Shown: positions 9,133-64,000 of the stretch, piece after piece
Position numbering within the stretch: the first letter of the stretch is position 1
Layout: every line of letters begins with the position of its first letter
Sequence record: PZ445489.1
DNA length: 64,000 nucleotides
Direction: 5' to 3' (one strand)
Origin: a phage
The notes under the pieces: generated by a model
Told to the model about the DNA's origin: nothing
The model's database searches: none
Seen by the model: only the letters and a program-made list of their open reading frames with translations
Program-made: the position numbers and the translations under genes

Positions 9133-9805
9133 GTTTCAGGGCAGCCTTAACAGCCTCATTAATCAACGTAATAATTTCTTCACGAGTCCACTTATACCCT
9201 AGAGATTTTACGTCAACCCCTAACTTTTCCAGATGTTTAACAGAAGCCAGCTCGTAATTCATATAATGAACGTTCTGTTGTTTGCTTTCTGATAGAAGCC
9301 ATACACGGTAACAACCAACAGGATTATCCATTGCTTTTTTGATTTCACCAATACACTGGTATCCAGGAACCCAAACAAGTTCTCCAACCTCAAATTCTTC
9401 TGCCACAGCATCGTCAGGAATAATTGGAGGATTCAATGGATCTACAATATCGTTCAAACGAAGTAGAGCACCATATCGTTCCAGAACAGATTTAACCATT
9501 GCTACAGAGCGGTAATTACGATCGGCAATTTCTTCAAAAGAATCACCAGATAGGTACTGTTCAATAACGTTGGCCAACTCAATACCTTCAATGAGTGTAC
9601 CACGTTTCTTTTTCTTCATTTCGGCAACTTGAATCTGGCGGTCTTGCCACTCTTCAATCATCCTTTCCATAGTCGGATTGGAAGATACGCCGAGCATTTC
9701 ACAAGCTGCTTTCTTGGTACCACCGTTCTCCAGATGCTCTATAACCTTTTTAAAGACTTCATCAGGGATTTCATGGATATGTTTCTTTCTGCGAGAACCA
9801 GCCAT
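9101..9805 (-). CDS. helix-turn-helix DNA-binding protein
   Basis: N-terminal HTH-like GGTKKAACEMLGVS; conserved promoter upstream on minus strand (~9815-9860). Confidence 0.5.
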   Translation of the reverse strand: MAGSRRKKHIHEIPDEVFKKVIEHLENGGTKKAACEMLGVSSNPTMERMIEEWQDRQIQVAEMKKKKRGTLIEGIELANVIEQYLSGDSFEEIADRNYRSVAMVKSVLERYGALLRLNDIVDPLNPPIIPDDAVAEEFEVGELVWVPGYQCIGEIKKAMDNPVGCYRVWLLSESKQQNVHYMNYELASVKHLEKLGVDVKSLGYKWTREEIITLINEAVKAALKLDKEKGKRRE

Positions 9806-55059: not shown

Positions 55060-55358
55060 TGAATGATAGAATGAAAGAAGTACAAGAAGAATTACGAGCA
55101 ATGCGTATTGATGCCCTTCGTTGGAGGGCATTAGTTAATGCTTTCGTCAAAGGAGACACCGGAGTAATATATTCTGGAATAGCAGTCAATTTTTGTTTTA
55201 ATTCTCCTGCTGAAATAGAGATAGAAACAAGGCTTACTACCTACCTTAATGAGGTAGATCTTAAGGAAGGAGAGACTCCCGAGGAGTTTAAAACCAAAGT
55301 GTTAACCTCTTGGGTTGATAGTTTAATACAGAATAAGGAAAAGAGTAATGAAAGTTAA
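55059..55358 (+). CDS. hypothetical protein (99 aa)
   Basis: ORF. Confidence 0.45.
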   Translation: MNDRMKEVQEELRAMRIDALRWRALVNAFVKGDTGVIYSGIAVNFCFNSPAEIEIETRLTTYLNEVDLKEGETPEEFKTKVLTSWVDSLIQNKEKSNES

Positions 55359-55938
55359 ATTCTGGTCAGACTTGCATCTAGACCACCCTGGAGCGTTACG
55401 TTTCCGTCCGTGGTTTAAGAACATGAAAGAGCACGATGAGTATATTCTAGATACTTTGTCTAAGCATATTGGTAAACGAACAAAACTTATTTTGCTAGGA
55501 GATATTGCAGTAGGTCGTGAAGGTCTAACCAAATTAAAGTCGGTTATCCACAATGTCCCTAATCAACTTATTATGGGTAATCATGATGCGGAACGTCAAG
55601 GACTGAGCATCAGGGATTTAGCGGAAGTTTATGACGATATCCAGGCTCTAGGTAAACAGACTGGAGGCGGCAAAAAGTTTTGGCTATCTCACTGCCCTTT
55701 GCACCCTAATGAACTTCGTGGCAAACTAAATATTCACGGACATGTACATACTACTTCTCTACGTGATCCACGTTATATTAATGTCTCATTTGAAATGAGT
55801 AAAACTCCAATCCCACTGGAGGATATTGTATCTGGTAAGTTTACTAGCTATGATAGAGTAGTTAATTGTACTACCGGCGAAGTATTACAAATAGGGGAAG
55901 ATGTAGCTGCCGTATTGCGTGGAGATATAAATGTCTAA
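55348..55938 (+). CDS. calcineurin-like metallophosphoesterase
   Basis: SDLHLD, LGDIAVG, MGNHDAE motifs. Confidence 0.65.
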   Translation: MKVKFWSDLHLDHPGALRFRPWFKNMKEHDEYILDTLSKHIGKRTKLILLGDIAVGREGLTKLKSVIHNVPNQLIMGNHDAERQGLSIRDLAEVYDDIQALGKQTGGGKKFWLSHCPLHPNELRGKLNIHGHVHTTSLRDPRYINVSFEMSKTPIPLEDIVSGKFTSYDRVVNCTTGEVLQIGEDVAAVLRGDINV

Positions 55939-60158: not shown

Positions 60159-60343
60159 TGGAAACTCTTTTTCTTTTAATGCTCGTAGGTTCCCTGCTAG
60201 TTATACTAGCACTTCTACTAATCTGTAATATTCTTAATAATAAGAATTTAGAGTTAAAGTGTGAGAACCAAATCCTTAACCGTGAACTTAAACAATATAA
60301 CCTAGCAGCTCATAAGCTGTTAGACAAACTGGAGAATAAATAA
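60158..60343 (+). CDS. hypothetical membrane protein (61 aa)
   Basis: ORF. Confidence 0.4.
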   Translation: METLFLLMLVGSLLVILALLLICNILNNKNLELKCENQILNRELKQYNLAAHKLLDKLENK

Positions 60344-60963
60344 TGACTTTATATGCACAACAATCTATTCAAGTAGTACCAGAGCATGAACTGAATACAT
60401 GGGATTATAGCTTTAAAGATTTAACTGCTACTGTACAATTCAAATCTATGAAGCTAACCTTTGCACACACTAGTATTAAAGCATGTAAAGATCTTGAAGG
60501 TAAGCTCGAAGATGCTCGCAAGATTTTTGGTACGGCTCGCATCCCGGCGGATAACCTGATTAATGCACTGATCGATGCAGGGTACAAACTTGTGAAGACT
60601 GAGGTGAACCGCCCCAGTACTCCAGTGACTATTAGAGATCCGTGGCAGTCAGGGACAATCTCAATGCTGAATAACTCCGATAAAAGATTAATGTCGGATA
60701 TGCACAATGTTCCTTGTGGGGGTGTGGTAAGTAGTACGAAGTCATATAAGTTTGGGGAAGATTACGGCCCTTCTGTACAGTTGAAACATACCCAAGAAGC
60801 TTTTGAATCTGATATGCGAAGCGTAGCACCTGTGGATGCTGGAGTTTCTAGGAGTTCTGTTTGTACTATTCATTTTAATAATCCTAGTAAACATGGAAGT
60901 CTAGAAGATGCAATTATGGAAGCACTGGGAGCTGTTATTAATGAAGATAAGAGGGGTAATTAA
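60343..60963 (+). CDS. hypothetical protein (206 aa)
   Basis: ORF. Confidence 0.5.
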   Translation: MTLYAQQSIQVVPEHELNTWDYSFKDLTATVQFKSMKLTFAHTSIKACKDLEGKLEDARKIFGTARIPADNLINALIDAGYKLVKTEVNRPSTPVTIRDPWQSGTISMLNNSDKRLMSDMHNVPCGGVVSSTKSYKFGEDYGPSVQLKHTQEAFESDMRSVAPVDAGVSRSSVCTIHFNNPSKHGSLEDAIMEALGAVINEDKRGN

Positions 60964-61694: not shown

Positions 61695-62037
61695 AGTATA
61701 TATTCTTGCAAATAGGGATCTGACGAAGATCCCTAAGAGAACAAAGATCGGTATTAGTATGAATCCACATAATAGGATTCAAACACTAAACTTAGATAAG
61801 ATAGTTTATCGTGGTTTTGACGATTTATACGTGTATGGGATCTATGAAACCCATAATCCTAGAGATCTAGAAGCCGCTGCACATATCTACTTTAAGAAAT
61901 ACCGCTGTAATTTAAAGGGATTCGAAGGATGCACAGAGTTCTTTGATATTCACCCACAACTTGCAGAACGATTCCTATTAAATACAGGAGCCAAGAAGAT
62001 TTACGACCCCAATATCAATCTCGAAGGAGATGTATAA
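61681..62037 (+). CDS. hypothetical protein (118 aa)
   Basis: ORF. Confidence 0.5.
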   Translation: MSLYKVYILANRDLTKIPKRTKIGISMNPHNRIQTLNLDKIVYRGFDDLYVYGIYETHNPRDLEAAAHIYFKKYRCNLKGFEGCTEFFDIHPQLAERFLLNTGAKKIYDPNINLEGDV

Positions 62038-62054
62038 ACGTTAACAAAATCTTC

Positions 62055-62084
62055 TTGACAACTCATTGCGGAACATGTTATAAT
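62055..62084 (+). promoter_or_regulatory. strong sigma70-type promoter reading into ORF-free repeat region
   Basis: TTGACA-18-TATAAT. Confidence 0.55.
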
Positions 62085-62359
62085 AATCTCATAGATTAAA
62101 AACAACTCTTGTTTTGAACTCTAGGGGCGATGATTATTACACTTAGTATTACGTCTATACGTTGCGACAGCACGAGTATAGATCTAATTACTAAGTCTTC
62201 CGTAATACTCACGCGCCCCACGAGGAATCTCACATGAAATGGGGGTATATTTACTTTTAAATAACTAAAAATATTTAAAGGCAATATCTGTGTTCAAGAT
62301 GATACACCTGTTGCCGCTCATCTGCTAGGATGGCACAACACTTTCTAGTAGACTCCTAA

Positions 62360-62563
62360 GTTTCTAGGAATAGTTGAGCACTAACTCTAGAGTTTACATT
62401 AAACTTTAAATCTGTTTCTCTAGCCAACTCAGGCGGTTTTCATTGTTCCTAGAAACTCTAGCAATAGGCGGTTATAGGGAGGGCGGTTATTTCTAGAAGA
62501 CATTTTTTGAAAACACATTTCCAGAAATTACTGTCGGATTTGCACACTGCATTTCTAGAAATT
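62360..62563. repeat. cluster of palindromic (A)TTTCTAGAAA-like sites (~5 copies)
   Basis: TTTCTAGGAA 62361, TTCCTAGAAA ~62446, TTTCTAGAA 62489, ATTTCCAGAAAT ~62517, ATTTCTAGAAAT ~62551. Confidence 0.6.
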
Positions 62564-63133
62564 TATGGTCGGATTTGCACAAACGCCTAAGTTTTTAGGG
62601 ACACATAATCTCCTGAAAATAGCAGCATTATTTCGGGCCGAAGGCCCATGATTGCCTGAGTTTTTAGAGCCACAGAAATTTTCACTTGTCAAGCTATTTT
62701 GCCCCGTTTAGCTAATAAAATTTTACTTTTTCTGCACCTATCTCAAATTAACCCAAATTATCTCACATCTTCCCCAAAATCCCCGCAAATCAGGTGCTCC
62801 GCACCAAACATGCGCCCCATCCTTCTAGCCTCCCAAATTTCTCTCACTCTCTCATCTTCTCCTCAAACCCACACAATCACACACCCTCCAATCGAAGTCA
62901 CAAAAATCTTGTCGGATTCGCACAAATAAACCCATGTCGGATTTGCACATATTCTAGCTAATTCCACAGGATTGATGCGCAGCATCGGATTGCTGGAGTT
63001 TTTGGGAAAATTCATTGTCGGATTTGCACACTATAAAAATTTTTCGGGTCGGATTTGCACACTACCAAAAATTGTCGGATTCGCACATACATGCCCGCAC
63101 GTAACACCCGTGGAGCAATGTCGGATTTGCACA
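62533..63133 (+). repeat. 8 direct copies of 14-bp motif GTCGGATT(T/C)GCACA
   Basis: Copies start at 62533, 62568, 62911, 62936, 63017, 63048, 63074, 63120, all in same orientation, variable spacing. Confidence 0.8.
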
Positions 63134-63138
63134 AAAGC

Positions 63139-63156
63139 GCAGGGCAATTGCCCTGC
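63139..63156. repeat. 18-bp perfect palindrome GCAGGGCAATTGCCCTGC
   Basis: Self-complementary. Confidence 0.75.
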
Positions 63157-63164
63157 TAGCCTGA

Positions 63165-63300
63165 ATGCGAATGATAATAAGAATCATTATCATTTAAAAA
63201 GCGAAATGAGAACTATTCAAAAAGTGAAATGATTCTCATTTAGGAAAGGAAATGATTATCGGTTAGAAAGTGAAATGCGAATGAGAATAATTCTCATTTA
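63165..63300. repeat. series of inverted repeats built on GAAATGA / TCATTTC and AATGAGAAT / ATTCTCATT half-sites
   Basis: ATGATAATAAGAATCATTATCAT, GAAATGATTCTCATTT, AATGAGAATAATTCTCATT. Confidence 0.65.
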
Positions 63301-63331
63301 AGAATGGAAGTGAGAAACACTGTTATTTAAG

Positions 63332-63340
63332 TTATCCACA
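63332..63340 (+). promoter_or_regulatory. DnaA box (TTATCCACA)
   Basis: Exact 9-mer match to consensus. Confidence 0.5.
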
Positions 63341-63404
63341 GACTTATTAACAGCACGATTTGACTTGACAGAATCCTAGCCATTTTGAGGCGTTATTAAC
63401 AGAC

Positions 63405-63413
63405 TTATCCACA
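63405..63413 (+). promoter_or_regulatory. DnaA box (TTATCCACA)
   Basis: Exact 9-mer match; flanked by repeated GACTTAT / TTATTAACAG motifs. Confidence 0.5.
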
Positions 63414-63421
63414 GCTTATCC

Positions 63422-63441
63422 TACTGTATAAATATACAGTA
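63422..63441. promoter_or_regulatory. LexA-box-like palindrome TACTGTATAAATATACAGTA
   Basis: CTG-N10-CAG with AT-rich spacer, 9-bp arms perfectly self-complementary. Confidence 0.55.
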
Positions 63442-63644
63442 TTCCTACGTAGTGAATAATTCTAATATACCGCTAAAACGTCCTAGATCGCATTCTAACG
63501 CGTTTAATTTTGGTGGGGATACTAAAACAAGGGCAAAATTGGAGGAGGCTTAAAAATTAGTTAGCCCGCTAACGATCACACAAGTCGACACGTAACACCC
63601 TAATCATTAGCAGGCTAACCATCGCGGGCGCGCTCAAATGAGAA

Positions 63645-63669
63645 TGATTCTCATTTGAGAATTGGGGGC
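63645..63669. repeat. 25-bp near-perfect palindrome TCAAATGAGAATGATTCTCATTTGA
   Basis: Same half-site family as 63165-63300 repeats. Confidence 0.65.
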
Positions 63670-63697
63670 ACTCCCTGGTAGTTGCGCCCCGTTATTA

Positions 63698-63892
63698 TTA
63701 ATCCGGTAATTGATGCGTGATCTTCTCCTCTTCCCCATAGGAATCGACCAAATGCTGATAATAACCATCGGCATCATAAATAACGCTATCATATTCCCCC
63801 CGCTCGACCGCTTGCCGGTTTTCCGGCGTATCGGGCACGTAAAAAACATCAACCATTGTACTGATTTTGGTTACAACAATTTTATTGCTCAT
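63698..63892 (-). CDS. hypothetical protein (64 aa)
   Basis: ORF only; beyond the repeat region, opposite strand. Confidence 0.3.
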   Translation of the reverse strand: MSNKIVVTKISTMVDVFYVPDTPENRQAVERGEYDSVIYDADGYYQHLVDSYGEEEKITHQLPD

Positions 63893-64000
63893 TGCGCCAC
63901 CTTTCGAAACGCTGTTTCAATACTATCCGCAGTGGATTGAATATACGCGCCTTTCATTACTAGGCGCTCGGTGCATACCTTGCGGAAAATATTAATAAAA

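What the first reader, a model, noticed from the sequence alone, without database searches (positions are those of the whole stretch)
63332..63413. Two exact DnaA boxes flanked by short repeated words
TTATCCACA occurs twice in direct orientation, 73 bp apart, embedded in repeated GACTTAT / TTATTAACAG words and next to the LexA-like palindrome. The 8 copies of GTCGGATTTGCACA upstream also partly resemble the TTWTNCACA consensus (ATTTGCACA). This could mark host DnaA recruitment for replication initiation or DNA-transfer pausing.
Basis: partly seen in the sequence, partly recalled or inferred. Interest (0 to 1): 0.55.

Follow-up and report, generated by a model that had tools for sequence, protein, structure and literature searches.

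The report
T5 injection-stop region DnaA boxes
The two DnaA boxes are real, but they belong to an already described, strongly conserved non-coding module at the inner end of the terminal repeat of T5-like phages, where the host protein DnaA probably docks and may help pause DNA injection (never tested); it is not a replication origin.

Summary
TTATCCACA occurs at 63332 and 63405 on the + strand. Each copy is paired, across a 3-bp GAC, with TTATTAACA at 63344 and 63393. The window is a T5-like phage, and this stretch is the homologue of T5's IRD'-spacer-IRC' element in Repeat Region 3, the putative injection stop signal. Its DnaA boxes were reported in 1987 and compared across 25 phages by Davison in 2020, so the feature is already known.

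I aligned 60 distinct copies from phages of six host genera. The gap between the pairs is 40 bp in 59 of 60. Each pair keeps a box within one mismatch of consensus (60/60 and 59/60 copies). Variation follows T-T-W-T-N-[C/A]-A-C-A.

The pairs match the "double DnaA box" grammar that E. coli DnaA needs in vivo (ChIP-seq, 2024). DnaA binding is therefore well supported in silico. A role in pausing DNA transfer is a published but untested hypothesis. The origin reading is not supported: there is no unwinding element, IHF site or GATC cluster, and T5 origins are reported near the genome centre.

The GTCGGATTTGCACA repeats are T5's DRD repeats and are not DnaA-like. A conserved LexA-type operator and Fur-like boxes lie beside the module.

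The parts
63309..63331 (+). Conserved flank block (A)AGTGAGAAACACTGTTATTTAAG. It is the outer part of T5 inverted repeat C'.
   Evidence: It aligns to T5 IRC' 9424-9462. Most columns are conserved in 54-60 of 60 unique copies.
63332..63340 (+). Box 1, TTATCCACA: an exact DnaA R1/R4-type box and the strong half of pair 1.
   Evidence: Exact in 39 of 60 unique copies. The commonest variants are TTATCCCCA (7) and TTATTCACA (5); five distant RR2-type copies carry more divergent 9-mers.
63344..63352 (+). Box 2, TTATTAACA (7 of 9 matches): the weak partner, 3 bp (GAC) after box 1.
   Evidence: TTAT and A7 are invariant in 58-60 of 60 copies, positions 5 and 6 vary.
63353..63392 (.). 40-bp gap between the two pairs. 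Its length is fixed and its sequence is variable, except for an invariant TTGACA at 63365-63370.
   Evidence: The gap is 40 bp in 59 of 60 copies. TTGACA columns are conserved in 51-60 of 60 copies while the flanks vary. No usable -10 hexamer follows it (and reading of the sequence).
63393..63401 (+). Box 3, TTATTAACA (7 of 9 matches): the weak half of pair 2.
   Evidence: Position 3 is A or T, position 5 is any base and position 6 is C or A across copies.
63405..63413 (+). Box 4, TTATCCACA: exact, the strong half of pair 2, followed by a conserved G.
   Evidence: Exact in 42 of 60 copies. T5 itself has TTATCCCCA here.
63416..63424 (+). Fifth TTATCC word (TTATCCTAC), 2 bp after box 4. It overlaps the LexA-type palindrome.
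   Evidence: TTAT is invariant in 59-60 of 60 copies. It has 3 mismatches to the DnaA consensus.
63422..63441 (.). LexA-type operator TACTGTATAAATATACAGTA, equivalent to T5 palindrome D.
   Evidence: 19 of 20 matches to the SOS-box consensus. It maps to T5 palD 9330-9349. The CTGT-N8-ACAG core is conserved in 57-60 of 60 copies.
63165..63320 (.). AT-rich array of AATGAGAAT/ATTCTCATT repeats and palindromes (T5 direct repeats C/E, palindromes E-I). It includes a 17/19 Fur-box match at 63173-63191. The T5 7.9% shear point maps to about 63188.
63137..63158 (.). Homologue of the T5 annotated major nick 1 site (GCGC), together with palindrome GCAGGGCAATTGCCCTGC (T5 palindrome J).
62533..63133 (+). 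Eight GTCGGATTYGCACA repeats (T5 direct repeat D). This is a separate conserved motif, not DnaA boxes. By homology to T5, the inner boundary of the terminal repeat falls at about 62667, inside this array.

Best explanation
This is the IRC'-spacer-IRD' module of the injection-stop region of a T5-like phage (Tequintavirus). It lies in the long non-coding stretch at the inner end of the terminal repeat. That is the last DNA to enter the cell in first-step transfer, about 145-255 bp before the point where T5 DNA is sheared off.

The module consists of two 'double DnaA boxes', each an exact box plus a 7/9 box in direct orientation and 3 bp apart. They are held exactly 40 bp apart and are followed by a fifth TTATCC word and a LexA-type operator.

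The most likely mechanism is as follows. As soon as this stretch reaches the cytoplasm, pre-existing host DnaA binds each pair cooperatively as a dimer or short oligomer. This needs no phage protein synthesis, as the pause requires. The resulting nucleoprotein complex tethers the distal end of the first-step DNA at or near the inner membrane and contributes to halting transfer, until the phage A1/A2 proteins release it.

Confidence differs by step:
- Identity with the T5 element, conservation and DnaA-type grammar are shown directly (about 0.95).
- DnaA occupancy is inferred (about 0.75).
- The link to pausing is the published, untested hypothesis (about 0.35).

It is not a replication origin.
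For: Identity and position:
- The window is T5-like: 456 phage records match, the best at 94% identity.
- The element is 92% identical to T5 9332-9462 and aligns box for box.
- T5 annotates inverted repeats D'/C', palindrome D, nick 1 and the terminal-repeat end around it, and these map onto the window.

Conservation, from 60 unique copies in phages of Escherichia, Salmonella, Klebsiella, Serratia, Pantoea and Vibrio:
- The same four box positions are kept, and the gap is 40 bp in 59 of 60.
- The best box of pair 1 is exact in 49 of 60 copies and within one mismatch in 60 of 60. For pair 2 the figures are 50 of 60 and 59 of 60.
- The strong box switches position within a pair between lineages.
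- Column variation is T-T-W-T-N-[C/A]-A-C-A-G. This reproduces the W and N positions of the DnaA consensus, while the gap sequence drifts.

Match to known DnaA binding:
- E. coli DnaA in vivo binds mostly pairs of direct boxes 2-3 bp apart. Mutating either box or adding 1 bp abolishes binding.
- Bound sites include purH TTACGCACAgagTTATCCACA and datA TTGTAAACAgagTTATCCACAg, the latter with A at position 6 as here.
- The window's pairs (0+2 mismatches) are as good as or better than most of those sites.
- Such a pair appeared in 0 of 300 simulated windows.

Fit with the pause: Davison 2020 describes the same arrangement in 25 phages and proposes the membrane-DnaA stop. The pause needs no phage protein synthesis, which fits a pre-existing host factor.
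Against: - No DnaA binding or phenotype has ever been measured for these sites.
- Position 6 toggles between C and A, which breaks the strict consensus TTWTNCACA.
- T5 itself has only one strict-consensus box among the four in this copy.
- DnaA does not explain the other conserved blocks: GTGAGAAACACT, TTGACA, the LexA-type palindrome and the Fur-like repeats.
- Protein bound to DNA that is already inside the cell does not obviously stop pressure-driven ejection. This holds unless the complex is fixed at the mouth of the channel.
- The inverted second copy is missing in some T5-like phages. It probably lies within the hegG-017 deletion of a viable T5 mutant (inferred, end points not checked), so not all boxes are needed.
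Confidence: 0.6

Rival explanations
1. The TTATNNACAG words are operators for a phage protein, most plausibly the DNA-binding dimer A2 or the A1/A2 complex, which are needed to restart transfer. On this reading the likeness to DnaA boxes is incidental, or it serves competition with DnaA.
For: A2 is a DNA-binding dimer that is essential for second-step transfer and has no known target. The conserved motif is wider than the 9-mer: a trailing G is kept, positions 5-6 are free, and a fifth TTATCC word is present. T5's own copy carries mostly non-consensus boxes.
Against: The exact E. coli consensus is maintained in at least one box of nearly every pair across six host genera. The W and N positions of the DnaA consensus are reproduced. 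The 3-bp direct-pair grammar is that of in vivo DnaA sites. A phage protein cannot cause the arrest itself, because arrest occurs without phage protein synthesis.
Confidence: 0.12
2. The module is a transcriptional roadblock or operator cluster. Host DnaA, and LexA at the adjacent operator, bind downstream of the rightward pre-early operon. There they stop RNA polymerase from reading, and possibly pulling DNA, into the not-yet-transferred genome, or they regulate pre-early promoters. On this reading the module protects or times the pause rather than causing it.
For: In the T5 annotation the element lies downstream of the last pre-early ORFs and of two putative terminators. The inverted copy lies between divergent pre-early promoters P3 and P4. 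DnaA acts as a transcription factor at double boxes, and DnaA and LexA co-regulate uvrB. A near-perfect LexA operator is conserved next to box 4.
Against: No promoter is predicted inside the module. No transcript data are available. The rigid 40-bp gap and the two-pair architecture are not needed for a simple roadblock.
Confidence: 0.15
3. The module is a DnaA-dependent origin of phage replication.
For: It is a cluster of four DnaA-type boxes beside a moderately AT-rich repeat array (66-72% AT).
Against: There is no 13-mer unwinding element and no IHF site, and GATC is under-represented (2 found, 5 expected). No similar sequence exists in 72,556 plasmids or 5,426 E. coli genomes. It lies in the terminal repeat, with a second inverted copy in relatives. 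T5 origins were mapped near the genome centre, and the replication genes are not expressed during first-step transfer.
Confidence: 0.04
4. The module is a DnaA sink or datA-like element. It would titrate or inactivate host DnaA early in infection to block new rounds of host replication.
For: Two high-quality double boxes per copy, up to four per terminal repeat, entering with the first DNA. datA uses a weak-gag-TTATCCACA pair of the same form.
Against: There is no IHF site between the pairs, which datA function requires. A handful of sites per infecting genome is small beside about 200 DnaA monomers per origin. T5 degrades host DNA within minutes, which makes initiation control redundant.
Confidence: 0.05

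Closest known systems
IRD'-spacer-IRC' element of phage T5 Repeat Region 3 (putative injection stop signal; AY587007 9332-9462; Heusterspreute 1987 as cited by Davison, Wang 2005 annotation, Davison 2020)
   Same: About 92% identical and aligned box for box. It has the same flanks (palindrome D, C/E repeats, nick 1, D repeats, terminal-repeat end), the same 3-bp intra-pair spacing and the same fixed inter-pair distance.
   Different: Here both outer boxes are exact TTATCCACA and the inner ones are TTATTAACA. T5 has TTATCCCCA at box 4 and TTATCAACA at the inner positions, so this phage carries a cleaner version. The inverted partner copy (IRC-spacer-IRD) would lie beyond the end of the window.
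E. coli 'double DnaA boxes' bound in vivo (purH, polA, nrdA, datA box 7/2, oriC; Stringer, Fitzgerald and Wade 2024)
   Same: Two 9-mers in direct orientation, 2-3 bp apart, one at or near consensus and one weaker, often followed by G. Weak partners with A at position 6 occur at datA and nrdD.
   Different: The phage has two such pairs locked 40 bp apart, in a non-coding region with no promoter or origin. Binding here is predicted, not measured.
datA locus (DnaA titration and DnaA-ATP hydrolysis site)
   Same: A cluster of a consensus box with an adjacent weak box, plus a further box at a distance, acting away from the origin.
   Different: datA needs an IHF site between its boxes. None is present here, and there is no sequence homology.
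oriC and DnaA-dependent plasmid origins
   Same: Several DnaA boxes in ordered phasing, which Davison described as reminiscent of oriC.
   Different: No unwinding element, IHF site, GATC cluster or iterons, and no similarity to any plasmid. The position and timing in the phage cycle argue against origin function.
uvrB promoter / DARS1 region of E. coli
   Same: DnaA boxes and a LexA operator lie side by side (abstract of PMC6015884).
   Different: DARS activity depends on a defined relative orientation of its boxes. Whether the all-direct arrangement here would satisfy it was not established. There is no sequence homology.

Membership tests
T5-type IRD'-spacer-IRC' module (Repeat Region 3, putative injection stop signal) | Sequence homology to T5 9332-9462 | tested here: met
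   91.7% identity over 180 bp to the T5 locus L001. The alignment A1 shows box-for-box correspondence.
T5-type IRD'-spacer-IRC' module (Repeat Region 3, putative injection stop signal) | Location in the long non-coding region between the last pre-early ORFs and the D-repeat array, at the inner end of the terminal repeat | tested here: met
   The flanking order is ORFs on the - strand from 63698, then palindrome D, the boxes, the C/E repeats, the nick-1 homologue and the D repeats, with + strand ORFs ending at 62037.
T5-type IRD'-spacer-IRC' module (Repeat Region 3, putative injection stop signal) | Four box positions in two pairs, 3 bp apart within a pair, with a fixed spacer between pairs | tested here: met
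   Boxes at 63332, 63344, 63393 and 63405. The gap is 40 bp, as in 59 of 60 copies.
T5-type IRD'-spacer-IRC' module (Repeat Region 3, putative injection stop signal) | Inverted partner copy (IRC-spacer-IRD) 2-4 kb further into the repeat | not testable with these tools
   The window ends about 590 bp beyond the module. The partner is present in closely related contigs (second hits in L154, L129, L149 and L059).
T5-type IRD'-spacer-IRC' module (Repeat Region 3, putative injection stop signal) | Causes arrest of DNA transfer at about 8% of the genome | not testable with these tools
   This needs a blender or Southern assay. It has not been shown for any T5-like phage at the level of this element.
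Double DnaA box (in vivo DnaA binding site of E. coli) | Two 9-mers in the same orientation, 2 or 3 bp apart, each contributing matches to TTATCCACA | tested here: met
   9/9 + 7/9 and 7/9 + 9/9 at 3-bp spacing. Compare the bound sites.
Double DnaA box (in vivo DnaA binding site of E. coli) | Occupied by DnaA | not testable with these tools
   This requires a footprint, EMSA or ChIP experiment.
DnaA-dependent replication origin | AT-rich unwinding element (13-mers) next to the boxes | tested here: not met
   No match to GATCTNTTNTTTT with up to 2 mismatches in 62250-63700. AT content is only 60-72%.
DnaA-dependent replication origin | IHF site and GATC cluster | tested here: not met
   No WATCAANNNNTTR match. 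GATC occurs 2 times against 5 expected.
DnaA-dependent replication origin | Replication starts there | not testable with these tools
   The literature cited places T5 origins near the genome centre.
datA-type DnaA control site | IHF binding site between essential boxes | tested here: not met
   The requirement is described.
LexA operator (SOS box) | CTGT-N8-ACAG within TACTG(TA)5CAGTA | tested here: met
   19 of 20 matches at 63422-63441. The core is conserved in 57-60 of 60 copies. Binding itself is not testable here.

The most novel reading that the evidence does not exclude
The injection-stop region is a composite docking platform for several abundant host regulators: two double DnaA boxes, a near-perfect LexA operator abutting box 4, and Fur-like palindromes at the mapped shear point. 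On this reading, occupancy by host proteins rather than DNA secondary structure sets the pause. LexA loss after A1-driven host DNA breakdown, or DnaA displacement by A1/A2, would then couple restart of transfer to successful host takeover. The LexA-type and Fur-type sites are not mentioned in the Davison 2020 analysis (0 occurrences of LexA or SOS). I found no paper linking them to T5.
Probability: 0.12. Interest if true: 0.7.

Novelty: already known. Interest (0 to 1): 0.3.

Why it matters
How T5 stops after injecting 8% of its genome has been open for roughly 60 years. This module is the leading candidate for the cis-acting stop signal, and host DnaA is the only concrete trans-acting candidate proposed so far. 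The finding itself rediscovers published facts.

The comparison made here sharpens the hypothesis into something testable. It shows a fixed 40-bp gap, a near-consensus (within one mismatch) box kept in almost every pair, and an exact match to the double-box grammar defined by ChIP-seq in 2024. Together these identify which bases to mutate: either half of a pair, or +1 bp in the 3-bp spacer. They also identify which host factors to deplete.

Tried and rejected
- **Chance occurrence.** Rejected. Exact boxes number 3 against 0.64 expected, paired boxes appeared in 0 of 300 simulations, and the module is conserved across six host genera.
- **Replication origin.** Rejected for lack of origin features, and on position and literature.
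- **D repeats as degenerate DnaA boxes.** Rejected. They have 3-4 mismatches and no partner box. The commonest variant changes box position 4 (T to C), while the 'N' position is invariant G. This is the opposite of the DnaA pattern. A conserved 5' GTCGG extension is also present.
- **Borrowed host or plasmid DNA.** No match in E. coli genomes or plasmids.
- **The conserved TTGACA in the gap as a promoter -35.** No acceptable -10 hexamer at 16-18 bp in either copy type (and reading of the sequence). It stays unexplained.
- **IHF site in the gap (datA-like).** None found.
- **Retrieving relatives through the flanking 243-aa protein.** This gave only 4 loci.
- **Retrieving relatives through the LexA-type palindrome.** This mostly retrieved unrelated prophage SOS boxes. 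A flank-anchored DNA pattern worked instead.
- **Davison 2015 review.** It could not be read because it is not held in the library.
- **Rfam.** No family matched in 61800-64000.

Full report
**What is there**

Window 63332-63413 holds two exact DnaA boxes, TTATCCACA, at 63332 and 63405 on the + strand. Each belongs to a pair. The pairs are TTATCCACA-GAC-TTATTAACA (63332-63352) and TTATTAACA-GAC-TTATCCACA (63393-63413).

The window has 3 exact boxes against 0.64 expected. The relaxed consensus is not enriched window-wide. A pair of this quality occurs only here, and in none of 300 simulated windows. The third exact box, at 55544, is single and lies inside a 196-aa ORF.

**Where it is**

The window is a T5-like phage. 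456 phage records match the surrounding 1.3 kb, mostly Salmonella and Escherichia Tequintavirus, with the best at 94% identity. The + strand of the window runs opposite to the standard T5 orientation.

The element aligns box for box with T5 AY587007 9332-9462. T5 annotates this stretch as inverted repeat D', direct repeats B and inverted repeat C', next to palindrome D.

Mapping T5 landmarks by alignment gives these window positions:

| T5 landmark | Window position |
|---|---|
| Palindrome D | 63422-63441 |
| 7.9% shear point | about 63188 |
| Annotated nick 1 | 63137-63144 |
| D repeats | 62533-63133 |
| Inner end of the terminal repeat | about 62667 |

T5 DNA enters left end first, which means from the right of the window towards the left. 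The boxes therefore enter just before the point at which transfer stops.

**Prior knowledge**

Davison's 2020 preprint (10.1101/866236) states that one consensus box and three variant boxes were noted in this element in 1987. It reports that 25 T5-like phages carry boxes in pairs separated by 3 bp with a constant 52-bp spacer, in this element and in an inverted copy (IRC-spacer-IRD). It also proposes that membrane-bound DnaA arrests injection.

Later papers say the role of these sites has not been tested (PMC10644984) and that the mechanism remains poorly understood (PMC13250531). The feature and the pausing idea are therefore already published.

**Independent check of conservation**

I collected loci with a flank-anchored pattern and from annotated records. 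I then aligned 60 distinct copies, covering both the Repeat Region 3 copy and the inverted copy. They come from phages of Escherichia, Salmonella, Klebsiella, Serratia, Pantoea and Vibrio.

- The gap between box 2 and box 3 is 40 bp in 59 of 60 copies, although its sequence drifts.
- The best box of pair 1 is exact consensus in 49 of 60 copies and within one mismatch in all 60.
- For pair 2 the figures are 50 of 60 and 59 of 60.
- The strong box can sit in either half of a pair, depending on lineage.
- Per-column variation is T-T-(A/T at box 3)-T-N-(C/A)-A-C-A, followed by a conserved G.

This reproduces the W and N positions of TTWTNCACA. It departs from that consensus only at position 6.

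**Fit to how DnaA binds in vivo**

ChIP-seq in E. coli shows that DnaA occupies almost only pairs of direct boxes 2-3 bp apart (PMC11317965). Mutating either half, or adding 1 bp between the halves, abolishes binding. Only 13 of the 32 lone consensus boxes in the genome are bound.

Bound pairs include purH TTACGCACAgagTTATCCACA and datA TTGTAAACAgagTTATCCACAg. nrdD TTAAGAACAggTTATCCACAg is also bound, so A at position 6 occurs in genuine weak partners. The window's pairs have 0+2 mismatches and equal or exceed most of these sites.

I found no paper connecting this grammar with T5. On this basis DnaA occupancy is likely. That is an inference, not a measurement.

**What it does**

The arrest needs no phage protein synthesis, which fits a pre-existing host factor. 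The module lies about 145-255 bp on the entered side of the mapped shear point.

The cell envelope spans on the order of 100 bp of DNA (my own estimate). That would place the module just inside the inner membrane during the pause. This is compatible with the tether model but does not demonstrate it.

Several points weigh against a simple DnaA story:
- T5's own copy has only one strict-consensus box.
- Other blocks are equally conserved and unexplained by DnaA: GTGAGAAACACT, an invariant TTGACA in the gap, the LexA-type palindrome and the Fur-like repeats.
- The inverted copy is missing in some phages.
- That copy probably lies within the hegG-017 deletion of a viable, small-plaque T5 mutant. 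This is inferred, because I did not check the end points.

**Origin reading**

This reading is not supported:
- There is no 13-mer unwinding element and no IHF site.
- GATC occurs 2 times against 5 expected, and AT content is only moderately raised.
- E. coli genomes and plasmids hold no homologue.
- The element sits in a terminal repeat with an inverted duplicate.
- T5 origins are reported near the genome centre.

**The upstream repeats**

The eight GTCGGATTYGCACA copies are T5's direct repeat D. They are conserved, in one orientation, in Tequintavirus, Epseptimavirus, Klebsiella and Pantoea phages.

Their 9-mers have 3-4 mismatches to the DnaA box and no partner at 2-3 bp. Their commonest variant changes box position 4, while the 'N' position never varies. 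They form a different motif, with an unknown binding partner.

**Verdict**

The feature is already known.

What this analysis adds is the quantitative conservation pattern, the link to the double-box rule, and the note that LexA-type and Fur-type sites flank the boxes.

Noticed in passing
window 63422-63441: A near-perfect LexA operator (TACTGTATAAATATACAGTA, 19 of 20 matches to consensus) abuts box 4. Its CTGT-N8-ACAG core is conserved in 57-60 of 60 copies across six host genera. Only the centre flips between AA and TT, which is consistent with exchange between the two inverted copies. It is T5's 'palindrome D'. Davison 2020 never mentions LexA or SOS, and I found no paper linking LexA to the T5 repeat.
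   Followed up: partly
window 63165-63320 and 63633-63659: An array of AATGAGAAT/ATTCTCATT palindromes resembles Fur boxes. One matches 17 of 19 positions of the Fur consensus (63173-63191; 0.02 expected per window) and lies at the mapped T5 shear point. Similar sites with 2-4 mismatches occur in the same region of Klebsiella, Pantoea and Vibrio T5-like phages.
   Followed up: partly
window 63365-63370: TTGACA is nearly invariant (51-60 of 60 copies per column) inside the otherwise variable 40-bp gap between the two box pairs. No usable -10 hexamer follows it. It is unexplained.
   Followed up: no
window 62533-63133 (also 60693): The GTCGGATTYGCACA repeats (T5 direct repeat D) are conserved in sequence and orientation across genera. 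The T5 terminal-repeat boundary maps inside the array, at about 62667, so they may relate to end formation or packaging. One further copy (GTCGGATATGCACA) sits inside ORF 60343-60963 and recurs with the same flanks in relatives.
   Followed up: partly
window 62055-62226: A perfect sigma-70 promoter (TTGACA, 18 nt with TG, TATAAT) is followed by a long hairpin of about 100 nt (GGGGCG...CGCCCC). RNA folding of 62090-62240 gives -47.5 kcal/mol, z = -6.6. Eight pairs show compensatory changes, all from one divergent relative. There is no Rfam match. It was found in only a handful of the fetched T5-like loci and not in the fetched T5 stretch. It may be an unannotated small RNA.
   Followed up: partly
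window 55544-55552: The third exact TTATCCACA in the window is single, has no partner box, and lies inside a 196-aa ORF (55348-55938). By the double-box rule it is unlikely to be bound.
   Followed up: yes
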